Source: Escherichia coli O127:H6 str. E2348/69 (lineage in GTDB: Bacteria; Pseudomonadota; Gammaproteobacteria; Enterobacterales; Enterobacteriaceae). Taken from it: a DNA stretch of 64,000 bases. The stretch is from assembly GCF_000026545.1 (NCBI RefSeq), contig NC_011601.1. One strand, 5' to 3'. How positions within the stretch are numbered: position 1 is the stretch's first letter; the number at the start of each line of letters is the position of its first letter. A model generated the notes under the pieces. That model was not told the origin of the DNA, did no database searches, and saw nothing but the letters and a program-made list of their open reading frames with translations. Of the stretch, positions 2,409-54,366 are shown one piece after another. A program made the position numbers and the translations under genes.

Positions 2409-3116
2409 ATGAATACCCAACGAAAATACGGGAGAACCTGGCATTACCCCTTCTCTCCAGGCACCACCAGCGATGACCGCATTAACACCGATTACTGGCA
2501 GGATTTAAAGGCCATCACGCAATTGGTGCACACAGAAAAACTCGATGGCGAAAATAACTGCCTTAACCGCTACGGCGTGTTTGCCCGCTCCCATGCCACG
2601 CCTACGCAGTCGGCATGGACCTATAAAATTCGCCAACGCTGGCAACTGCTGAAAAACGATCTCGGCGACCTGGAGTTGTTTGGTGAAAATCTCTACGCCG
2701 TTCATTCCATTGAATACCGCGCGCTGGAACAGGACTTTTACCTGTTTGCCGTTCGCTGCCAGGATATGTGGCTGAGCTGGGAAGAGGTGCAGTTTTACGC
2801 CGCTCTGTTTGATTTCCCCTGCGTTCCCGAAATCTCCGGCCCGCAGCCGGGGAATGATGAAAAAAGCTGGCAACGTGATTTTCTGGCGCTGGCCAATGCG
2901 CGCGGCACATTCGATCCCTGGGATACGCAAACCTGGCAACCCTGTACGCTGGAAGGCATTGTCAGCCGAAATCATGATGCGTTTTCTGTCGCTGACTTTT
3001 CGCATAACGTCTTCAAGTATGTGCGCAAAAATCATGTCAAAACCACTGTGCACTGGAAACGCCACTGGCAACGGGCGCGGATGGCCCATGAGTTCGTTTA
3101 TGGAGAACAGTCATGA
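2409..3116 (+). CDS. ATP-dependent RNA ligase family protein (nucleotidyltransferase domain)
   Basis: 235 aa ORF; covalent nucleotidyltransferase motif I K-x-D-G in TEKLDGEN; ligase-like FGENLY and KYVRK motifs; no K-12 counterpart at this locus. Confidence 0.65.
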
Positions 3117-4225
3117 TTTGGCAACTTACCGACGATAAACGCTGGTCGGCGCTACGTCAGCGTTTTAGCTGGGTTGAGGAGATGCATCACACGCCACAAG
3201 ACCCTGAGCATCATGGTGAAGGCGACGTCGGCGTACATACCGAAATGGTGCTTAACGCCCTCATTACTCTGCCAGAATTCCAGCAACTCCCCGCTCAACA
3301 GCAGGAAGTTTTATGGGCGGCGGTGTTATTGCATGATGTTGAAAAGCGCAGCACTACCGTGCAGGAAAACGGACGTATTCAGTCTCCTGGTCATGCTCGT
3401 CGGGGCGAACTGACGGCCCGACAAATTTTATGGCGCGATATCCCAACGCCGTTCGTGCTGCGCGAGCAAATTGTTGCACTGGTGCGTCTGCATGGGTTAC
3501 CGCTATGGTTACTGGAACGCCCGGAACCGGAGCGTTTGTTGCTCACGGCTGCAATGCGCATCGACACGCGTCTGCTCGCTTTGCTTGCTCGTGCCGATCT
3601 GCTTGGTCGCCAAAGCCCGGATCAGCAATCAATGCTGGAACGCATCGATCTGTTCGAGCTGTTTTGCCATGAGCAACAATGCTGGGGAAAAATGCGCCCG
3701 TTCGTTTCTGATTCCGCACGCTGGCATTACCTGACCCATGAGCAAAGTTCTCCTGATTTTGTTCCCTGGGGGGCTGAACCTTTTGAGGTTATTTTGCTGT
3801 GTGGCTTACCGGGTATGGGCAAAGATCGCTATATCAGTGAACAGTGCCAGGGAATTGACGTTATCAGCCTTGATGATATGCGGCGGCGAATCAATGCCAG
3901 CCCGGATGACAAAACCGCTACCGGGCGTATTGTGCAACAGGCAAAAGAAGAGGCGCGCGTTTTTTTACGCCAGAAAAAGCCGTTCATCTGGAATGCAACG
4001 AACATTACCCGCCAGCTGCGTAGCCAGCTCATCAGTCTGTTTACGGCTTACGGCGCACGAGTAAAAATCGTTTATCTGGAAGTGCCATGGGCGCAATGGA
4101 AGCAGCAAAATGCCAGACGCGAGTATGCAGTTCCTGAAGCGGTCGTGATGCGGATGGCCTCAAGGCTGGAAGTTCCTCAACCTGATGAAGCACATAGCGT
4201 GGAGTATCGGGTGATTGAAAGGTAA
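3113..4225 (+). CDS. HD-domain phosphohydrolase fused to P-loop kinase-like domain (putative RNA end-healing enzyme)
   Basis: 370 aa ORF; start overlaps upstream stop (ATGA); N-terminal H..HD motifs ([17 protein letters not shown]); C-terminal Walker A-like [10 protein letters not shown]. Confidence 0.65.
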
Positions 4226-4247
4226 ATAAATATCCTCCGGCATAGCC

Positions 4248-5797
4248 CTGTCTCTTATACACAAATCCCCACCCGGGGATTTGTGATGTCTGTCAGTCTG
4301 CTTTAGGGGGACTCTTTCCATCCGGTAGTTTCCTTCCTCCCCGGCAGCGATTTTTTGAACTTTTTCCTCACCTGTTGATCTTCTCTTATATTTCATTTTC
4401 TTCGGGTCTGTTATGGTACTTTCTGATTGTTATTCATGGGCTAACGAGCAGTTTGGACATGCCCGTCTCGGTGATCCGCGTCGTACACGACGCCTTGTGT
4501 CACTGGCCTCTTCTCTCGCTCAGCATGCAGGTCTTTCTATTGTGAAATCATCCCAGTCCACTGCTCAGGTTGAAGGTGCGTACCGCCTGATACGTAACCC
4601 GTCTGTGTCCCCGCAAGCCATTGCCGAAGCCGGATTTACCGCCACTGTAAGGGCATGTGAGGCTCATCCGCTGCTCCTCGCGCTGGAAGACACCACCACC
4701 ATTAACTTCAGTCACAGTACGGCATCTGATGACCTGGGGAATACCACCACTAACCCGAAGACGCGCGGGCTGCTGGCTCACTCTGTCCTGATGTACGCCC
4801 CCGACAGCGCCCTGCCAGTCGGTCTTATCGAACAGCAGCGCTGGAGTCGTGCCACGGACACCTACGGTGTTAAGCACCAGCGAAAAGAACGTCCCTATGA
4901 AGAAAAAGAAAGTTACCGCTGGCAGCAGGCTTCGGAGCGCATGGCCGAACGGCTGGGGGAGATACAGAAACGGGTAATCACTGTCTGTGACCGGGAAGCG
5001 GATATCTGGCATTACCTGCATTATAAAGTCAGCCACGGGCAGCGCTTCGTGGTGCGTGCAGCACAGAATCGCCGGCTGGAAGAAGCACCCGGCAAGCTCT
5101 TCGAACTGCCGGAAGTCCTGGCAACCGCGGGAAGCCACACGCTGAATGTGATGCAAAAAGGCGGGCGGGCAGCCCGCCAGGCCCGGATGTTCATCAGTTA
5201 CAGCGAAGTCAGCATAAAAAATCCCGACAACAGCGGCCAGGCGCTCCCGCTCACGTATGTCTGTTGCCGGGAGCAGGCAGAGGACGGCGCCTGCTGGCAT
5301 CTGCTGACGTCAGAAAAAGTGGCGAGTGCCGCCGATGCGCGACGTATCGTCAGCCATTACGAGCGACGCTGGCTGATAGAGGAATACCACAAGGCGTGGA
5401 AAAGTGGTGGTACATGTGTGGAATCGCTGCGAATGCAGACCCGGGATAACCTCGAGCGCATGGTGGTTATCAAGGCGTTTATCGCGGTGCGGGTGCTGGG
5501 CCTGCGGCAGGGCGGTATCAGTGAAGAAACACAAAATGACAGCTGTGAGAAAATACTGACGCCGACAGAGTGGAAACTGCTGTGGGTTAAGCTGGAAGGA
5601 AAACCGCTTCCGTCACAGATGCCGACACTGAAATGGGCCTGTCTGAAACTGGCGAAACTGGGGCGATGGCATGACAGCAAACGCACCGGTCGCCCCGGTT
5701 GGGTAGTCATGTGGGATGGCTGGTTCAGACTTCAGGATATGGTTGAGGGTTACCTGGTGATGAAGTCTCTTGATCAGGAGATCTGATCAAGAGACAG
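4248..5797 (+). mobile_element. IS4-family IS50(Tn5)-like insertion sequence, copy 1 (1550 bp)
   Basis: Ends CTGTCTCTTATACACAAATCC and AGATCTGATCAAGAGACAG (the latter matching the Tn5 inside end as recalled); 9-10 bp duplication cggcatagcc; identical to copy 2. Confidence 0.85.
4413..5786 (+). CDS. IS4-family DDE transposase (Tn5 Tnp-like)
   Basis: 457 aa; Tn5 transposase-like motifs GDPRRT, VCDREADI, RWLIEEYHKAWKSGG, DNLERMV, DSKRTG. Confidence 0.88.
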   Translation: MVLSDCYSWANEQFGHARLGDPRRTRRLVSLASSLAQHAGLSIVKSSQSTAQVEGAYRLIRNPSVSPQAIAEAGFTATVRACEAHPLLLALEDTTTINFSHSTASDDLGNTTTNPKTRGLLAHSVLMYAPDSALPVGLIEQQRWSRATDTYGVKHQRKERPYEEKESYRWQQASERMAERLGEIQKRVITVCDREADIWHYLHYKVSHGQRFVVRAAQNRRLEEAPGKLFELPEVLATAGSHTLNVMQKGGRAARQARMFISYSEVSIKNPDNSGQALPLTYVCCREQAEDGACWHLLTSEKVASAADARRIVSHYERRWLIEEYHKAWKSGGTCVESLRMQTRDNLERMVVIKAFIAVRVLGLRQGGISEETQNDSCEKILTPTEWKLLWVKLEGKPLPSQMPTLKWACLKLAKLGRWHDSKRTGRPGWVVMWDGWFRLQDMVEGYLVMKSLDQEI

Positions 5798-5893
5798 CGG
5801 CATAGCCGGAGGTTTTTCAAATGCGCCTATAAGGCTCTCTTACCAGCCGCGCCCTAACAGGCGCACACGATCTGACATTTGCATCCAACTTCG

Positions 5894-6352
5894 TTACTTA
5901 CGGCCCGTAAACGGGCTGCCCGGATAGGGAATCGATAACTGCTCTCCCATTTTATCCTCTTCAAGCTGGTGCTTTATGTAATCCTGTATCTTCGCCGTGT
6001 TCTTACCCACCGTATCGACGTAATACCCTCTGCACCAGAACTCCCTGTTCCTGTACTTGAATTTCAAATCACCAAACTGCTCGTAAAGCATCAGACTGCT
6101 TTTCCCTTTCAGATATCCCATAAAGCCGGATACGCTCATTTTGGGCGGGATCTCCACAAGCATATGGATATGATCTGCACAGCATTCAGCTTCCAGAATC
6201 CGTACACTTTTCCACTCACACAGCTTTCTCAAAATACAGCCTATTGCTCTACGCTTCTCTCTGTAGAACACCTGTCTTCGGTATTTTGGCGCAAATACTA
6301 TGTGATATTTACAGTTCCATCGGGTGTGCGCTAAGCTCTTTTCGTTCCCCAT
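5894..6352 (-). CDS. tnpA: IS200-family transposase TnpA (Y1 HuH)
   Basis: MGNEKSLAHTRWNCKYHIVFAPKYRR N-terminus, HIHMLV HuH motif, C-terminal catalytic Tyr region; ORF 5894..6403 with start at internal Met. Confidence 0.85.
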   Translation of the reverse strand: MGNEKSLAHTRWNCKYHIVFAPKYRRQVFYREKRRAIGCILRKLCEWKSVRILEAECCADHIHMLVEIPPKMSVSGFMGYLKGKSSLMLYEQFGDLKFKYRNREFWCRGYYVDTVGKNTAKIQDYIKHQLEEDKMGEQLSIPYPGSPFTGRK

Positions 6353-6544
6353 TGGGACCCCCTTTTGATTTCTTGTTTGACACTTGCAGTTGCCAGACCG
6401 CAAGGTGTTTTAACAAATCAAAAGGGGTTTTAATAACTGGCTCAAAGCTGAAAGCTTTCCGGAACCCCCAGCCTAGCTGGGGGTTTTCTGTGCACAAAAA
6501 ACCGGGCGGTGGTGTCACCTGCCCGGCTTCTTTTGTTCCACTGA

Positions 6545-7128: not shown

Positions 7129-7205
7129 GAAAGACGCGCATTTGTTATCATCATCCCTGAATTCAGAGATGAAATTTTGGCCACTCACGAGTGGCCTTTT
7201 TCTTT
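7129..7205 (+). ncRNA. micA: MicA (SraD) small regulatory RNA
   Basis: Sequence gaaagacgcgcatttgttatcatcatccctgaattcagagatgaaattttggccactcacgagtggccttttt matches MicA by recall; terminator hairpin plus T-run; between luxS and gshA. Confidence 0.85.
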
Positions 7206-9977: not shown

Positions 9978-10054
9978 TGGTGCATCCGGGAGGATTCGAA
10001 CCTCCGACCGCTCGGTTCGTAGCCGAGTACTCTATCCAGCTGAGCTACGGATGC
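9978..10054 (-). tRNA. argQ: tRNA-Arg (ACG)
   Basis: 77-nt reverse complement of tRNA-Arg with CCA end; first of four identical copies; copy naming nominal. Confidence 0.9.
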
Positions 10055-10117
10055 ATCGGGAAAATTTATTTTACTACTGATATTGATATCGCTACTAAAG
10101 CCATATCAAGTAAGAGA

Positions 10118-10194
10118 TGGTGCATCCGGGAGGATTCGAACCTCCGACCGCTCGGTTCGTAGCCGAGTACTCTATCCAGCTGAGCTACGGATGC
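10118..10194 (-). tRNA. argZ: tRNA-Arg (ACG)
   Basis: Identical 77-nt copy. Confidence 0.9.
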
Positions 10195-10257
10195 ATCGGG
10201 AAAATTTATTTTACTACTGATATTGATATCGCTACTAAAGCCATATCAAGTAAGAGA

Positions 10258-10334
10258 TGGTGCATCCGGGAGGATTCGAACCTCCGACCGCTCGGTTCGT
10301 AGCCGAGTACTCTATCCAGCTGAGCTACGGATGC
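10258..10334 (-). tRNA. argY: tRNA-Arg (ACG)
   Basis: Identical 77-nt copy. Confidence 0.9.
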
Positions 10335-10397
10335 ATCGGGAAAATTTATTTTACTACTGATATTGATATCGCTACTAAAGCCATATCAAGTAAGAGA

Positions 10398-10474
10398 TGG
10401 TGCATCCGGGAGGATTCGAACCTCCGACCGCTCGGTTCGTAGCCGAGTACTCTATCCAGCTGAGCTACGGATGC
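10398..10474 (-). tRNA. argV: tRNA-Arg (ACG)
   Basis: Identical 77-nt copy. Confidence 0.9.
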
Positions 10475-10477
10475 AAA

Positions 10478-10570
10478 TGGCGGTGAGGCGGGGATTCGAA
10501 CCCCGGATGCAGCTTTTGACCGCATACTCCCTTAGCAGGGGAGCGCCTTCAGCCTCTCGGCCACCTCACC
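10478..10570 (-). tRNA. serV: tRNA-Ser (GCU)
   Basis: 93-nt reverse complement of tRNA-Ser with long variable arm and CCA end. Confidence 0.88.
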
Positions 10571-30068: not shown

Positions 30069-30436
30069 CAAATTCTCCAGCAATAACAGTTAATGCGCCG
30101 ATACATTCACAAATCATGCCAGTTTTTAATTTACTGTTATTTAAGGAAATTAAATTCTGTAATGCAGGAAAAACGATGTCATCGACACTAGTGACGATGA
30201 CATGTGATGACAGTATTTATCGTTGCCAGTCCACATCTGGGTACTTTTTTCCGACAAGTCGTTCTGGTGGTATAAAAAAGTAATTGCCAGTAACGGGGAG
30301 GATTTAAGGGAAGCAACCGTGCCGGATACGGCGTGAACAATGACCACTTTGTCAGCTATCCATATGATTGTATTTTGAGGTTCATCGCAGATTAGCGATG
30401 AACCTTTATTGTGCACAGAAAACCCCCAGCTAGGCT

Positions 30437-31986
30437 CTGTCTCTTATACACAAATCCCCACCCGGGGATTTGTGATGTCTGTCAGTCTGCTTTAGGGGGA
30501 CTCTTTCCATCCGGTAGTTTCCTTCCTCCCCGGCAGCGATTTTTTGAACTTTTTCCTCACCCGTTGATCTTCTCTTATATTTCATTTTCTTCGGGTCTGT
30601 TATGGTACTTTCTGATTGTTATTCATGGGCTAACGAGCAGTTTGGACATGCCCGTCTCGGTGATCCGCGTCGTACACGACGCCTTGTGTCACTGGCCTCT
30701 TCTCTCGCTCAGCATGCAGGTCTTTCTATTGTGAAATCATCCCAGTCCACTGCTCAGGTTGAAGGTGCGTACCGCCTGATACGTAACCCGTCTGTGTCCC
30801 CGCAAGCCATTGCCGAAGCCGGATTTACCGCCACTGTAAGGGCATGTGAGGCTCATCCGCTGCTCCTCGCGCTGGAAGACACCACCACCATTAACTTCAG
30901 TCACAGTACGGCATCTGATGACCTGGGGAATACCACCACTAACCCGAAGACGCGCGGGCTGCTGGCTCACTCTGTCCTGATGTACGCCCCCGACAGCGCC
31001 CTGCCAGTCGGTCTTATCGAACAGCAGCGCTGGAGTCGTGCCACGGACACCTACGGTGTTAAGCACCAGCGAAAAGAACGTCCCTATGAAGAAAAAGAAA
31101 GTTACCGCTGGCAGCAGGCTTCGGAGCGCATGGCCGAACGGCTGGGGGAGATACAGAAACGGGTAATCACTGTCTGTGACCGGGAAGCGGATATCTGGCA
31201 TTACCTGCATTATAAAGTCAGCCACGGGCAGCGCTTCGTGGTGCGTGCAGCACAGAATCGCCGGCTGGAAGAAGCACCCGGCAAGCTCTTCGAACTGCCG
31301 GAAGTCCTGGCAACCGCGGGAAGCCACACGCTGAATGTGATGCAAAAAGGCGGGCGGGCAGCCCGCCAGGCCCGGATGTTCATCAGTTACAGCGAAGTCA
31401 GCATAAAAAATCCCGACAACAGCGGCCAGGCGCTCCCGCTCACGTATGTCTGTTGCCGGGAGCAGGCAGAGGACGGCGCCTGCTGGCATCTGCTGACGTC
31501 AGAAAAAGTGGCGAGTGCCGCCGATGCGCGACGTATCGTCAGCCATTACGAGCGACGCTGGCTGATAGAGGAATACCACAAGGCGTGGAAAAGTGGTGGT
31601 ACATGTGTGGAATCGCTGCGAATGCAGACCCGGGATAACCTCGAGCGCATGGTGGTTATCAAGGCGTTTATCGCGGTGCGGGTGCTGGGCCTGCGGCAGG
31701 GCGGTATCAGTGAAGAAACACAAAATGACAGCTGTGAGAAAATACTGACGCCGACAGAGTGGAAACTGCTGTGGGTTAAGCTGGAAGGAAAACCGCTTCC
31801 GTCACAGATGCCGACACTGAAATGGGCCTGTCTGAAACTGGCGAAACTGGGGCGATGGCATGACAGCAAACGCACCGGTCGCCCCGGTTGGGTAGTCATG
31901 TGGGATGGCTGGTTCAGACTTCAGGATATGGTTGAGGGTTACCTGGTGATGAAGTCTCTTGATCAGGAGATCTGATCAAGAGACAG
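30437..31986 (+). mobile_element. IS4-family IS50(Tn5)-like insertion sequence, copy 2 (1550 bp)
   Basis: Same termini as copy 1; perfect 9-bp target duplication agctaggct at 30428..30436 and 31987..31995. Confidence 0.88.
30602..31975 (+). CDS. IS4-family DDE transposase (Tn5 Tnp-like)
   Basis: Identical 457-aa protein to copy 1. Confidence 0.88.
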   Translation: MVLSDCYSWANEQFGHARLGDPRRTRRLVSLASSLAQHAGLSIVKSSQSTAQVEGAYRLIRNPSVSPQAIAEAGFTATVRACEAHPLLLALEDTTTINFSHSTASDDLGNTTTNPKTRGLLAHSVLMYAPDSALPVGLIEQQRWSRATDTYGVKHQRKERPYEEKESYRWQQASERMAERLGEIQKRVITVCDREADIWHYLHYKVSHGQRFVVRAAQNRRLEEAPGKLFELPEVLATAGSHTLNVMQKGGRAARQARMFISYSEVSIKNPDNSGQALPLTYVCCREQAEDGACWHLLTSEKVASAADARRIVSHYERRWLIEEYHKAWKSGGTCVESLRMQTRDNLERMVVIKAFIAVRVLGLRQGGISEETQNDSCEKILTPTEWKLLWVKLEGKPLPSQMPTLKWACLKLAKLGRWHDSKRTGRPGWVVMWDGWFRLQDMVEGYLVMKSLDQEI

Positions 31987-32112
31987 AGCTAGGCTGGGGG
32001 TTCCGGAAAGCTTTCAGCTTTGAGCCAGTTATTAAAACCCCTTTTGATTTGTTAAAACACCTTGCGGTCTGGCAACTGCAAGTGTCAAACAAGAAATCAA
32101 AAGGGGGTCCCA

Positions 32113-32571
32113 ATGGGGAACGAAAAGAGCTTAGCGCACACCCGATGGAACTGTAAATATCACATAGTATTTGCGCCAAAATACCGAAGACAGGTGTTCT
32201 ACAGAGAGAAGCGTAGAGCAATAGGCTGTATTTTGAGAAAGCTGTGTGAGTGGAAAAGTGTACGGATTCTGGAAGCTGAATGCTGTGCAGATCATATCCA
32301 TATGCTTGTGGAGATCCCGCCCAAAATGAGCGTATCCGGCTTTATGGGATATCTGAAAGGGAAAAGCAGTCTGATGCTTTACGAGCAGTTTGGTGATTTG
32401 AAATTCAAGTACAGGAACAGGGAGTTCTGGTGCAGAGGGTATTACGTCGATACGGTGGGTAAGAACACGGCGAAGATACAGGATTACATAAAGCACCAGC
32501 TTGAAGAGGATAAAATGGGAGAGCAGTTATCGATTCCCTATCCGGGCAGCCCGTTTACGGGCCGTAAGTAA
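32113..32571 (+). CDS. tnpA: IS200-family transposase TnpA (Y1 HuH)
   Basis: Identical to copy 1 TnpA. Confidence 0.85.
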   Translation: MGNEKSLAHTRWNCKYHIVFAPKYRRQVFYREKRRAIGCILRKLCEWKSVRILEAECCADHIHMLVEIPPKMSVSGFMGYLKGKSSLMLYEQFGDLKFKYRNREFWCRGYYVDTVGKNTAKIQDYIKHQLEEDKMGEQLSIPYPGSPFTGRK

Positions 32572-32722
32572 CGAAGTTGGATGCAAATGTCAGATCGTGT
32601 GCGCCTGTTAGGGCGCGGCTGGTAAGAGAGCCTTATAGGCGCATTTGAAAAACCTCCGGCTATGCCGGAGGATATTTATTGAATAATACTATTTCGACTG
32701 AAATAACAGGTAAGGATACAAA

Positions 32723-53457: not shown

Positions 53458-54366
53458 ATGAAAACGGGATCGGAGTTTCATGTCGGTATCGTTGGCTTAG
53501 GGTCAATGGGAATGGGAGCAGCACTGTCATGTGTCCGCGCAGGTCTTTCTACCTGGGGCGCAGACCTGAACAGCAATGCCTGCGCTACGTTGAAAGAGGC
53601 TGGTGCTTGCGGAGTTTCTGATAACGCCGCGACGTTTGCCGAAAAACTGGACGCTCTGCTGGTGCTGGTGGTCAATGCGGCCCAGGTTAAACAGGTGCTG
53701 TTTGGTGAAAAAGGCGTTGCACAACATCTAAAACCCGGTACGGCAGTAATGGTTTCTTCCACTATCGCCAGTGCTGATGCGCAAGAAATTGCTACCGCTC
53801 TGGCTGGATTCGGTCTGGAAATGCTGGATGCGTCGGTTTCTGGTGGTGCGGTAAAAGCCGCTAATGGTGAAATGACTGTCATGGCCTCCGGTAGCGATAT
53901 TGCCTTTGAACGACTGGCACCCGTGCTGGAAGCCGTTGCCGGAAAAGTTTATCGCATCGGTTCAGAACCGGGACTGGGTTCGACCGTAAAAATTATCCAC
54001 CAGTTGTTAGCGGGCGTACATATTGCTGCCGGAGCCGAAGCGATGGCGCTTGCAGCCCGTGCGGGGATCCCGCTGGATGTGATGTATGACGTCGTGACCA
54101 ATGCCGCCGGAAATTCATGGATGTTCGAAAACCGGATGCGTCATGTGGTGGATGGCGATTACACCCCGTATTCAGCCGTCGATATTTTTGTTAAGGATCT
54201 TGGTCTGGTTGCCGATACCGCCAAAGCCCTGCACTTCCCGCTGCCATTGGCCTCAACAGCATTGAATATGTTCACCAGCGCCAGTAACGCGGGTTACGGG
54301 AAAGAAGACGATAGCGCAGTTATCAAGATTTTCTCTGGCATCACTCTACCGGGAGCGAAATCATGA
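53458..54366 (+). CDS. ygbJ: L-threonate dehydrogenase (3-hydroxyisobutyrate dehydrogenase family)
   Basis: 302 aa, Rossmann GIVGLGSMG. Confidence 0.9.
   Translation: MKTGSEFHVGIVGLGSMGMGAALSCVRAGLSTWGADLNSNACATLKEAGACGVSDNAATFAEKLDALLVLVVNAAQVKQVLFGEKGVAQHLKPGTAVMVSSTIASADAQEIATALAGFGLEMLDASVSGGAVKAANGEMTVMASGSDIAFERLAPVLEAVAGKVYRIGSEPGLGSTVKIIHQLLAGVHIAAGAEAMALAARAGIPLDVMYDVVTNAAGNSWMFENRMRHVVDGDYTPYSAVDIFVKDLGLVADTAKALHFPLPLASTALNMFTSASNAGYGKEDDSAVIKIFSGITLPGAKS

What the first reader, a model, noticed from the sequence alone, without database searches (positions are those of the whole stretch)
4225..6496. IS50-like element inserted in terminal hairpin loops of IS200-like elements, twice and independently
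Both 1550-bp IS50-like copies lie inside an IS200-like element with a 9-10 bp duplication that falls in a terminal hairpin loop. Copy 1 sits 23 bp from the IS200 right end (duplication cggcatagcc in cctccggctatgccggagg). Copy 2 sits 27 bp from the left end of an oppositely oriented IS200 copy at 30410..32680 (duplication agctaggct in cccccagctaggctggggg). Two separate events at structurally equivalent positions suggest this IS4-family element targets the IS200 subterminal hairpins. Such insertions probably inactivate IS200 end recognition by TnpA.
Basis: seen in the sequence. Interest (0 to 1): 0.65.

Follow-up and report, generated by a model that had tools for sequence, protein, structure and literature searches.

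The report
ISEc13 targets C-run/G-run hairpin palindromes
The two Tn5-like insertion sequences (ISEc13) really do sit in the end hairpins of two IS200 copies, but this is because ISEc13 targets a class of GC-rich hairpin palindromes (CCCC–loop–GGGG, typical of transcription terminators) wherever they occur, and the IS200 ends are simply good multi-copy examples.

Summary
Two 1550-bp copies of ISEc13 (IS4 family, Tn5/IS50-like) lie at 4248-5797 and 30437-31986. Each has a perfect direct repeat (10 bp and 9 bp) and splits a terminal hairpin of a separate IS200C copy. The window is EPEC E2348/69, and both junctions occur only in that lineage among 5,426 E. coli genomes.

About 50 other ISEc13 insertion sites (another genome, viral and metagenome contigs, 13 hold-out sites) nearly all lie in palindromes with a 5' C-run arm and a 3' G-run arm, consensus CCCC(T)-N8/9-(A)GGGG. 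Most are terminator-like hairpins unrelated to IS200. The duplication is 8 bp (15 sites), 9 bp (7) or 10 bp (1), and in 17 of 23 sites it is centred exactly on the dyad. Occupied sites have longer stems than core-matched background sites.

IS200 ends are recurrent hot spots: a third hit in E2348/69, an old plasmid module, and further metagenome loci. They match the general rule and account for roughly their share of suitable hairpins. The closest precedents are the palindromic target preferences of IS231A, IS186 and IS10. No description of this preference for ISEc13 was found.

The parts
4248..5797 (+). ISEc13 copy 1 (1550 bp; ends CTGTCTCTTATACACAAATC / CTGTCTCTTGATCAGATCTC)
   Evidence: 100% identical to annotated ISEc13 in E2348/69
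4413..5786 (+). ISEc13 transposase gene, 457 aa, intact
   Evidence: ORF; aligns over its full length to Tn5 transposase, E=6e-84; DDE and Y-2-R-3-E-6-K blocks visible in the alignment; Pfam Tnp_DNA_bind, DDE_Tnp_1
4238..4247 (.). left copy of the 10-bp target duplication CGGCATAGCC of copy 1
5798..5807 (.). right copy of the 10-bp target duplication of copy 1
4225..6496 (-). IS200C copy A, interrupted in its right-end hairpin by ISEc13 copy 1 (RE outer 23 bp at 4225-4247; remainder at 5808-6496)
   Evidence: (annotation IS200C)
5894..6352 (-). IS200C tnpA of copy A, 152 aa, intact
6463..6485 (.). intact left-end hairpin of IS200 copy A (AACCCCCAGC-cta-GCTGGGGGTT). It is an unoccupied ISEc13-type target and the 5' end of the Rfam STnc490 match at 6362-6485.
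   Evidence: published as the IS200 nt 12-34 terminator
30437..31986 (+). ISEc13 copy 2 (1550 bp)
30602..31975 (+). ISEc13 transposase gene of copy 2
   Evidence: same offset as in copy 1; the only difference between the copies is at IS nt 126, outside the ORF
30428..30436 (.). left copy of the 9-bp target duplication AGCTAGGCT of copy 2
31987..31995 (.). right copy of the 9-bp target duplication of copy 2
30410..32680 (+). IS200C copy B, interrupted in its left-end terminator hairpin (nt 12-34) by ISEc13 copy 2
32113..32571 (+). IS200C tnpA of copy B, intact
   Evidence: sequence read directly; same protein as copy A
32653..32671 (.). intact right-end hairpin of IS200 copy B (CCTCCGGC-tat-GCCGGAGG); unoccupied target; scores as terminator-like on both strands
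31980..32103 (+). Rfam STnc490 match whose first 7 nt lie in ISEc13 (117 bits, against 146 bits for the intact copy); the IS200 5' region is split by the insertion
4260..4285 (.). ISEc13's own subterminal C-run/G-run hairpin CACAAATCCCC-accc-GGGGATTTGTG (also at 30449-30474)
   Evidence: -17.5 kcal/mol with RNA parameters

Best explanation
ISEc13 is an intact Tn5/IS50-like cut-and-paste DDE element with a strong target-site preference. It inserts into short palindromes whose 5' arm carries a C-run and whose 3' arm carries the complementary G-run, with consensus CCCC(T)-N8/9-(A)GGGG. In E. coli these sequences are mostly GC-rich stem-loops such as intrinsic terminators.

The two strand-transfer sites lie at the inner edges of the two arms, symmetric about the dyad. 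The loop plus the inner stem base pairs are therefore duplicated: 8 bp when the loop is even, 9 bp when it is odd, rarely 10 bp.

The IS200 left-end terminator hairpin (nt 12-34) and the IS200 right-end hairpin both fit this rule, and IS200 is multi-copy (8 copies in E2348/69). IS200 ends are therefore hit again and again, as one class of hot spot among many.

Shown: the motif, the dyad-centred duplication, independent repeat hits on the same hairpins, and longer stems than in matched background.

For: Motif: in 56 non-redundant half-sites, C occupies positions -13 to -10 from the IS end in 75-89% of cases and G is almost absent there.

Hold-out: in 13 new distinct sites from unrelated complete genomes, 23 of 26 half-sites have at least 3 C at those positions, against 4.8% in background (p about 1e-27).

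Reconstructed empty sites.

Dyad centring: 17 of 23 sites are exactly centred, and 11 of 12 with stem >=6 (p about 7e-15). Duplication lengths are 8 bp x15, 9 bp x7, 10 bp x1.

Independent hits on the same hairpin: L006 against L026 (opposite orientations), L003 against L095 and L090 against L097 (8 bp against 9 bp), and IS200 LE in both orientations within E2348/69.

Palindromy beyond the conserved bases: mirrored positions are complementary above column-shuffle expectation (p about 0.001). Stems are longer than at core-matched background sites (median 6.5 against 3, p=3e-5), and still longer than at intergenic background sites (p=0.0014).

Within the healed window, only about 6 of 46 strong inverted repeats have a C-rich 5' arm. 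Four of those are IS200 ends, and two of the four are occupied.

The transposase is intact and Tn5-like. The IS200 LE hairpin is the published terminator.
Against: A simple position-independent half-site profile trained without IS200 sites scores the two window sites poorly (7.2 and 2.2, against 14 for unoccupied sites). The sequence model is therefore incomplete or noisy.

All sites are natural survivors, so purifying selection may inflate the share of harmless terminator sites.

A few sites, mostly in coding regions, have only a weak or one-sided motif (L087, L015, L099).

Window copy 1 has an off-centre 10-bp duplication.

No de novo insertion data or biochemistry were available. The coding/intergenic background mask was crude.
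Confidence: 0.82

Rival explanations
1. IS200-specific targeting: ISEc13 recognises IS200 ends as such, through IS200-specific sequence or an IS200-bound protein such as TnpA.
For: At least 6 apparently independent hits on IS200 LE or RE hairpins: window copies 1 and 2; L088; the plasmid LE27-ISEc13-RE23 module; L030 and the L039-type loci. At least 3 of the 16 IS200 end hairpins in E2348/69 are occupied.
Against: Most sites (about 85% or more) are unrelated to IS200 and share the same motif. The LE and RE hairpins differ from each other in sequence except for the C/G-run arms. IS200's share of ISEc13 copies (about 10% in E2348/69) is close to a rough estimate of its share of suitable hairpins: 16 of about 120 per genome, extrapolated from 16 sites with stem >=8 in 666 kb. 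That extrapolation is my inference.
Confidence: 0.05
2. Structure-specific capture: the primary determinant is an extruded hairpin or cruciform (non-B DNA) at GC-rich palindromes, not base-specific reading of duplex half-sites. The C-runs merely make the stem stable.
For: Complementarity at non-conserved mirrored positions. Longer stems than at core-matched sites, including intergenic ones. The mononucleotide profile fails to rank the IS200 hairpins. The stagger adapts to loop parity.
Against: The polarity is strict: C-run 5' and G-run 3', with G almost never at -13 to -11. A pure structure reader should accept GGGG...CCCC hairpins as well. Sites with C/G-run half-sites but little or no stem are used (L001, L002, L087, L089, L093). 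An 8-9 bp stagger is the normal duplex geometry for IS4-family DDE enzymes. Stems of 7-12 bp rarely extrude in vivo (general knowledge).
Confidence: 0.2
3. Survivorship only: ISEc13 inserts nearly at random, and only insertions in harmless intergenic hairpins persist.
For: Many sites lie between convergent genes, where insertion spares coding sequence.
Against: Selection cannot create a base-specific C-run at a fixed distance, exact dyad centring, or repeated use of the same nucleotide positions. Insertions inside genes (ygfK, tssH) still carry the motif at least partly. Other intergenic DNA is not used.
Confidence: 0.02
4. The two window junctions arose by recombination or gene conversion between IS copies, not by two separate transpositions.
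For: IS-IS recombination does occur in this family of genomes: L007/L008 have swapped flanks, pMAR2 copy L086 lacks a duplication, and the LE-ISEc13-RE module lacks the IS200 body.
Against: Both window copies have perfect flanking duplications, and each healed site reconstitutes the intact IS200 hairpin seen in the partner copy. The two insertions lie at opposite ends of IS200.
Confidence: 0.02

Closest known systems
IS231A (IS4 family) inserting preferentially into the terminal inverted repeats of Tn4430; target motif GGG-N5-CCC
   Same: It is an IS4-family DDE element with a G/C-run palindromic target motif (Table 1 of PMC2577343). That motif makes the ends of another transposon a preferred target, and its duplication length is variable. 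The Tn4430 preference is recalled knowledge; supporting titles are.
   Different: The polarity is reversed (G-run 5', C-run 3'), the duplication is 10-12 bp, and the spacer is shorter. The victim is a Tn3-family element, not IS200, and the subgroup is different (IS231, not IS50).
IS186 hot spots, GGGG-N6/7-CCCC (for example the lon promoter)
   Same: G/C-run palindromic consensus in E. coli. The consensus is recalled; the paper title is cited.
   Different: Reversed polarity, a different subgroup, and no link to hairpins or terminators that I know of. The paper could not be read.
Tn5/IS50 and IS10/Tn10 (staggered-cut palindromic target motifs AGNTYWRANCT and GNNGCTNAGCNNC)
   Same: The ISEc13 transposase aligns over its full length to Tn5 transposase. 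Its right end is identical to the IS50 inside end over 19 bp, and its left end matches the outside end at 17 of 19 bp (end sequences recalled). The target model is symmetric.
   Different: Tn5 has a weak consensus and a fixed 9-bp duplication, and it is used as a near-random tool. ISEc13 has a sharp C-run/G-run motif outside the duplication and mostly 8-bp duplications.
REP-targeting insertion sequences (IS1397, ISKpn1 of IS3 family; ISPpu9/ISPpu10)
   Same: They insert into the loop or centre of multi-copy palindromic extragenic hairpins. ISPpu9 in REP is (abstract); the others are recalled.
   Different: The transposase families differ (IS3, IS110). Their targets are REP sequences, which lack the C-run arms. 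The IS110 type uses a different chemistry.
Group IIC introns inserting at intrinsic terminator stem-loops; IS4321/IS5075 inserting in Tn21-family inverted repeats
   Same: These are mobile elements that home to terminator hairpins, or to the ends of other transposons, as safe sites (recalled knowledge; group IIC is mentioned).
   Different: Retrohoming into single-stranded DNA, or DEDD transposases, are unrelated mechanisms.

Membership tests
IS4 family, IS50 subgroup (ISEc13) | Single-ORF DDE transposase with DDE triad and Y(2)R(3)E(6)K motif | tested here: met
   full-length alignment to Tn5 transposase (E=6e-84). The EDTT, DREADI and Y-ER-R-WLI-E-EYHKAW-K blocks are aligned. Pfam Tnp_DNA_bind and DDE_Tnp_1.
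IS4 family, IS50 subgroup (ISEc13) | Terminal inverted repeats of the IS50 type (5'-CTGTCTCTT...) | tested here: met
   left end CTGTCTCTTATACACAAATC, right end (reverse complement) CTGTCTCTTGATCAGATCTC.
IS4 family, IS50 subgroup (ISEc13) | Target duplication of about one helical turn (9 bp for IS50) | tested here: met
   8 bp (15 sites), 9 bp (7), 10 bp (1). This is within the family range but more variable and shorter than IS50's fixed 9 bp.
IS4 family, IS50 subgroup (ISEc13) | Identity with the named element ISEc13 | tested here: met
   100% identity to loci that PGAP annotates as 'IS4-like element ISEc13 family transposase'. The ISfinder reference entry itself was not available.
IS200/IS605 family (IS200C, the host element) | Small Y1 HUH TnpA, no terminal inverted repeats, no target duplication, subterminal hairpins at both ends | tested here: met
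   152-aa TnpA containing HIHMLV. PGAP annotation as IS200C. LE and RE hairpins. Rfam STnc490; flanks differ between loci and show no duplication.
IS200/IS605 family (IS200C, the host element) | The hairpins hit are the ones TnpA needs for end recognition | not testable with these tools
   Only family-level statements were found (abstract), plus the terminator role of LE nt 12-34. No binding data for IS200C were available.
Staggered-cut palindromic target-site elements | Two-fold symmetric target motif centred on the duplication, used in both orientations | tested here: met
   (symmetric C-run/G-run, dyad-centred). (the same site used in both orientations).
Structure-specific (hairpin or cruciform) targeting elements | Targeting depends on secondary structure independent of stem sequence | tested here: inconclusive
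   Complementarity and stem length exceed controls. However, strict C-run polarity and the use of weak-stem sites argue for sequence reading. Biochemistry is needed.

The most novel reading that the evidence does not exclude
ISEc13 transposase, a close relative of the 'random' Tn5 enzyme, would be a true hairpin or terminator reader. It would sense the extruded or easily melted stem-loop as well as its C/G-run arms, and set its cut spacing (8 or 9 bp) by the geometry of the loop instead of by a fixed stagger. If so, this would be a natural Tn5-like enzyme with programmable-looking, structure-guided specificity for terminators and for the end hairpins of single-strand transposons.
Probability: 0.2. 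Interest if true: 0.6.

Novelty: new member of a known kind. Interest (0 to 1): 0.42.

Why it matters
ISEc13 is a close relative of Tn5, the standard near-random transposase, yet it shows sharp natural target selectivity. This gives a ready comparison pair for working out how Tn5-like enzymes choose targets.

It also explains where ISEc13 lands in EPEC and other E. coli: terminators between convergent genes, Ibs/Sib loci, prophage hairpins and IS200 ends. It predicts the resulting terminator disruption, IS200 inactivation, and IS-mediated rearrangements, such as the inversion and the deletion module seen here.

One practical point: the first 16 nt of the ISEc13 left end match the Nextera/mosaic-end adapter prefix, so adapter trimmers may clip reads at ISEc13 junctions.

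Tried and rejected
1. A position-independent half-site profile trained without IS200 sites did not rank the IS200 hairpins highly in the window. I dropped it as a predictor and kept it as evidence that mononucleotide sequence alone is insufficient.

2. A genome-contig scan for the 26-nt left end found nothing in 100,044 species-representative genomes. ISEc13 with these exact ends appears confined to particular E. coli lineages. The second scan was not used.

3. I considered whether variable duplication length was an artefact of misplaced IS boundaries or of 1549-bp copies. It was not: the missing base is an internal G at IS nt 59.

4. I considered whether the LE27-ISEc13-RE23 module is a mobile composite or an insertion into an IS200-derived miniature element. 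I rejected both because it has no duplication and each flank keeps only half a hairpin. Two same-orientation hits followed by deletion between the ISEc13 copies is the simplest origin. This remains an inference.

5. The E2348/69 genome paper and the IS186 consensus paper could not be read. One literature query was malformed.

6. An ncbifam scan failed because of a wrong frame for the IS200 gene and was not repeated.

7. I could not enumerate all of the roughly 30 ISEc13 sites in E2348/69 with the available tools.
Full report
THE OBSERVATION

Reading the sequence and exact matching confirm two 1550-bp elements at 4248-5797 and 30437-31986. Both are on the + strand and they differ at a single base. 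Their ends are Tn5/IS50-like: CTGTCTCTTATACACAAATC on the left, and CTGTCTCTTGATCAGATCTC for the reverse complement of the right end.

Copy 1 is flanked by a perfect 10-bp repeat, CGGCATAGCC. Copy 2 is flanked by a perfect 9-bp repeat, AGCTAGGCT. Removing each element together with one repeat copy restores cctccggc-ata-gccggagg and aacccccagc-tag-gctgggggtt. These are the same hairpins that are intact at the other end of the partner IS200 copy (32653-32671 and 6463-6485).

The host elements are two oppositely oriented IS200C copies, 4225-6496 on the minus strand and 30410-32680 on the plus strand. Both have intact 152-aa tnpA genes (annotation).

Two random insertions both landing at the centres of two of the four IS200 hairpins in a 61-kb window would have a probability of about 4e-8. 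The perfect repeats show simple transposition and not recombination.

IDENTITY AND PROVENANCE

Megablast against 5,426 complete E. coli genomes names the element ISEc13 (IS4 family). About 30 places occur in the chromosome of EPEC O127:H6 strain E2348/69, and 873 genomes carry a full-length copy. Both ISEc13/IS200 junctions of the window occur only in the three E2348/69 assemblies. The window is therefore E2348/69, next to luxS and gshA, and the two insertions are recent events specific to that lineage.

The 457-aa transposase aligns end to end with Tn5 transposase (E=6e-84), with the catalytic and YREK blocks in place.

WHAT ISEc13 ACTUALLY TARGETS

Ten other copies of the identical transposase gene in another genome (CP148541.1) are not in IS200. 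Several sit in the few bases between convergent genes. Reconstructing their empty sites showed the same thing each time: a palindrome with a C-run in the 5' arm and a G-run in the 3' arm, with the duplication covering its centre. Two copies without repeats (L007, L008) have swapped flanks. Exchanging the flanks restores two perfect 8-bp repeats, so an inversion between two ISEc13 copies occurred.

Scans of viral and metagenome contigs with the IS ends raised the sample to 56 non-redundant half-sites. Positions -13 to -10 from the IS end are C in 75-89% of them and almost never G or A, with a T bias at -9 and a G bias at -1. The consensus is CCCC(T)-N8/9-(A)GGGG.

Eighteen loci fetched from complete-genome hits yielded thirteen new distinct sites as a hold-out. 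In these, 23 of 26 half-sites have at least three C at those positions, against 4.8% in background (p about 1e-27), and 11 of 13 sites have the motif on both halves.

The same hairpins are hit independently. One prophage hairpin carries the IS in both orientations (L006 and L026). The agp-yccJ hairpin and a tRNA-Pro-adjacent hairpin each carry insertions with 8-bp and 9-bp duplications in different strains. Paralogous Ibs/Sib hairpins are hit at different loci.

GEOMETRY

Across 23 sites with both flanks, the duplication is 8 bp (15 sites), 9 bp (7) or 10 bp (1). It is centred exactly on the dyad of the palindrome in 17 of 23 sites, and in 11 of 12 sites with a stem of at least 6 bp (p about 7e-15 against chance). 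Even loops therefore give 8 bp and odd loops give 9 bp.

Window copy 1, with 10 bp and an offset of half a base, is the one outlier among strong hairpins. The boundaries are not misdefined, because the 1549-bp copies lack an internal G.

SEQUENCE OR STRUCTURE?

Mirrored positions are complementary more often than column composition predicts, both inside the duplication and outside the C-run (p about 0.001 each).

Background sites matching the bare core CCC-N8-11-GGG occur about once per 1.4 kb in 666 kb of fetched E. coli and phage DNA. Against these, occupied sites have far longer perfect stems (median 6.5 against 3; 58% against 10% with stem >=6; p=3e-5). The excess persists against a crude intergenic-only background (p=0.0014).

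A mononucleotide half-site profile trained without IS200 sites ranks the window's two occupied sites poorly. Yet of 46 perfect inverted repeats with stem >=7 in the healed window, only about six have a C-rich 5' arm. Four of those are the IS200 ends, and two of the four are occupied.

Selection against disruptive insertions cannot explain a preference for hairpins over other intergenic DNA, so extended palindromy appears to be a real preference.

Against a purely structural reader, the polarity is strict (C-run 5', G-run 3'). In addition, several sites, mostly inside genes, have C/G-run half-sites with little or no stem. Finally, an 8-9 bp stagger is ordinary duplex geometry for this family.

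My best reading is symmetric capture of a duplex target, with base-specific contacts to the C/G-runs just outside the cuts. Palindromy or ease of deformation would add to affinity. Primary recognition of an extruded hairpin remains possible (about 0.2).

IS200 ENDS AS HOT SPOTS

The IS200 left-end hairpin hit by copy 2 is exactly nt 12-34. That hairpin is published as a bidirectional rho-independent terminator which shields tnpA from outside transcription (PMC4513863). The intact right-end hairpin scores as terminator-like on both strands. Both fit the general rule.

Hits recur:
- E2348/69 has 8 IS200 copies and a third ISEc13 in an IS200 LE hairpin beside trpA. It has the same 9 bp duplicated and the opposite orientation.
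- A diverged (about 95% identical), often internally deleted ISEc13 is flanked by only the outer 27 bp of LE and the outer 23 bp of RE. It occurs on about 100 plasmids and at a second locus. This is best explained by two same-orientation hits in one IS200 followed by deletion between them.
- A further LE hit sits at another locus in metagenomes.

IS200 ends account for roughly 10% of ISEc13 copies in E2348/69 (at least 3 of about 30). That is about the share expected from 16 hairpins among roughly 120 comparably strong C-run hairpins per genome, which is my extrapolation. There is therefore no sign of IS200-specific recognition.

CONSEQUENCES (INFERRED)

Each insertion separates the two arms of a subterminal hairpin by 1.55 kb. 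Family-level knowledge is that TnpA recognises subterminal secondary structures (PMC6006769 abstract). The interrupted copies are thus probably immobile in cis, although their tnpA genes are intact.

In copy B the terminator upstream of tnpA is destroyed, and the Rfam STnc490 match loses its 5' end (117 against 146 bits). Transcription from the co-oriented ISEc13 transposase gene could now enter IS200.

COMPARISON AND NOVELTY

Palindromic target motifs are common for cut-and-paste elements: IS231A GGG-N5-CCC, Tn5 AGNTYWRANCT and Tn10 GNNGCTNAGCNNC (PMC2577343). From recall, IS231A preferentially hits the ends of Tn4430, and IS186 prefers GGGG-N6/7-CCCC. REP-targeting ISs and group IIC introns are functional analogues.

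ISEc13 differs in several ways. Its polarity is reversed. The motif lies outside the duplication. The duplication is 8 or 9 bp and set by the dyad. There is an apparent preference for long stems, and the element is a close Tn5 relative.

The eight papers that mention ISEc13 only list it as detected. The IS4-family review describes no such target for the IS50 subgroup. I could not consult ISfinder.

It is of moderate interest.

Noticed in passing
window 6497-6535 and 30370-30409; loci L030, L031, L039: Every IS200 copy examined lies immediately 3' of a host terminator-like hairpin plus T-run. Examples are the luxS terminator, and AGGTTCATCGC-agatta-GCGATGAACCT followed by ttat. IS200 itself seems to insert just downstream of intrinsic terminators.
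   Followed up: partly
window 4260-4285 and 30449-30474; 5767-5797 and 31956-31986: ISEc13 carries its own subterminal C-run/G-run hairpin at the left end (CACAAATCCCC-accc-GGGGATTTGTG, -17.5 kcal/mol). Its right end is a near-perfect palindrome containing two GATC sites (-20.1 kcal/mol). These might replace the terminator that the insertion destroys and shield the transposase gene from read-through. This is speculation.
   Followed up: partly
window 4248-4264 and 30437-30453: The first 16 nt of the ISEc13 left end (CTGTCTCTTATACACA) are identical to the Tn5 mosaic-end/Nextera adapter prefix (recalled sequence). Adapter trimmers may clip reads at ISEc13 junctions and hide such insertions in short-read data.
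   Followed up: no
L035, L036, L040, L048, L051, L061, L068, L031, L043, L030; about 100 E. coli plasmids: This module consists of IS200 LE (27 bp), an ISEc13-like element (about 95% identical, often missing nt 532-1120) and IS200 RE (23 bp), with the IS200 body gone. It is widespread on plasmids and present at a second locus with different flanks.
   Followed up: partly
L007 and L008 (CP148541.1, about 2,303,817 and 2,364,294); L086 (pMAR2): Flank swapping between two inverted ISEc13 copies about 60 kb apart indicates an inversion by IS-IS recombination. One pMAR2 copy also lacks a duplication.
   Followed up: partly
L039, L047, L054, L058, L059, L065, L072: In these metagenome contigs only ISEc13 nt 1-50 follow the IS200 LE half-hairpin, and the sequence then switches to unrelated DNA (ttgaaccgccccgtg...). 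The same truncation occurs behind two different left flanks, which suggests a further rearrangement or another inserted element.
   Followed up: no
window 53960-53977: CCCCATC-tacg-GATGGGG is an unoccupied hairpin of the ISEc13 target type. It is the only non-IS200 C-run hairpin with stem >=7 in the window.
   Followed up: no
window 26568-26690 (-), 7129-7200 (+), 9981-10570 (-): Rfam matches to the isrC sRNA, the MicA sRNA and a cluster of five tRNA genes (four of them with identical scores at a 140-bp spacing).
   Followed up: no
window 2409-4225 (+): Two overlapping ORFs of 235 aa and 370 aa lie just upstream of IS200 copy A, in the region next to luxS. The 370-aa ORF ends at the IS200 right end. 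Their function was not examined.
   Followed up: no
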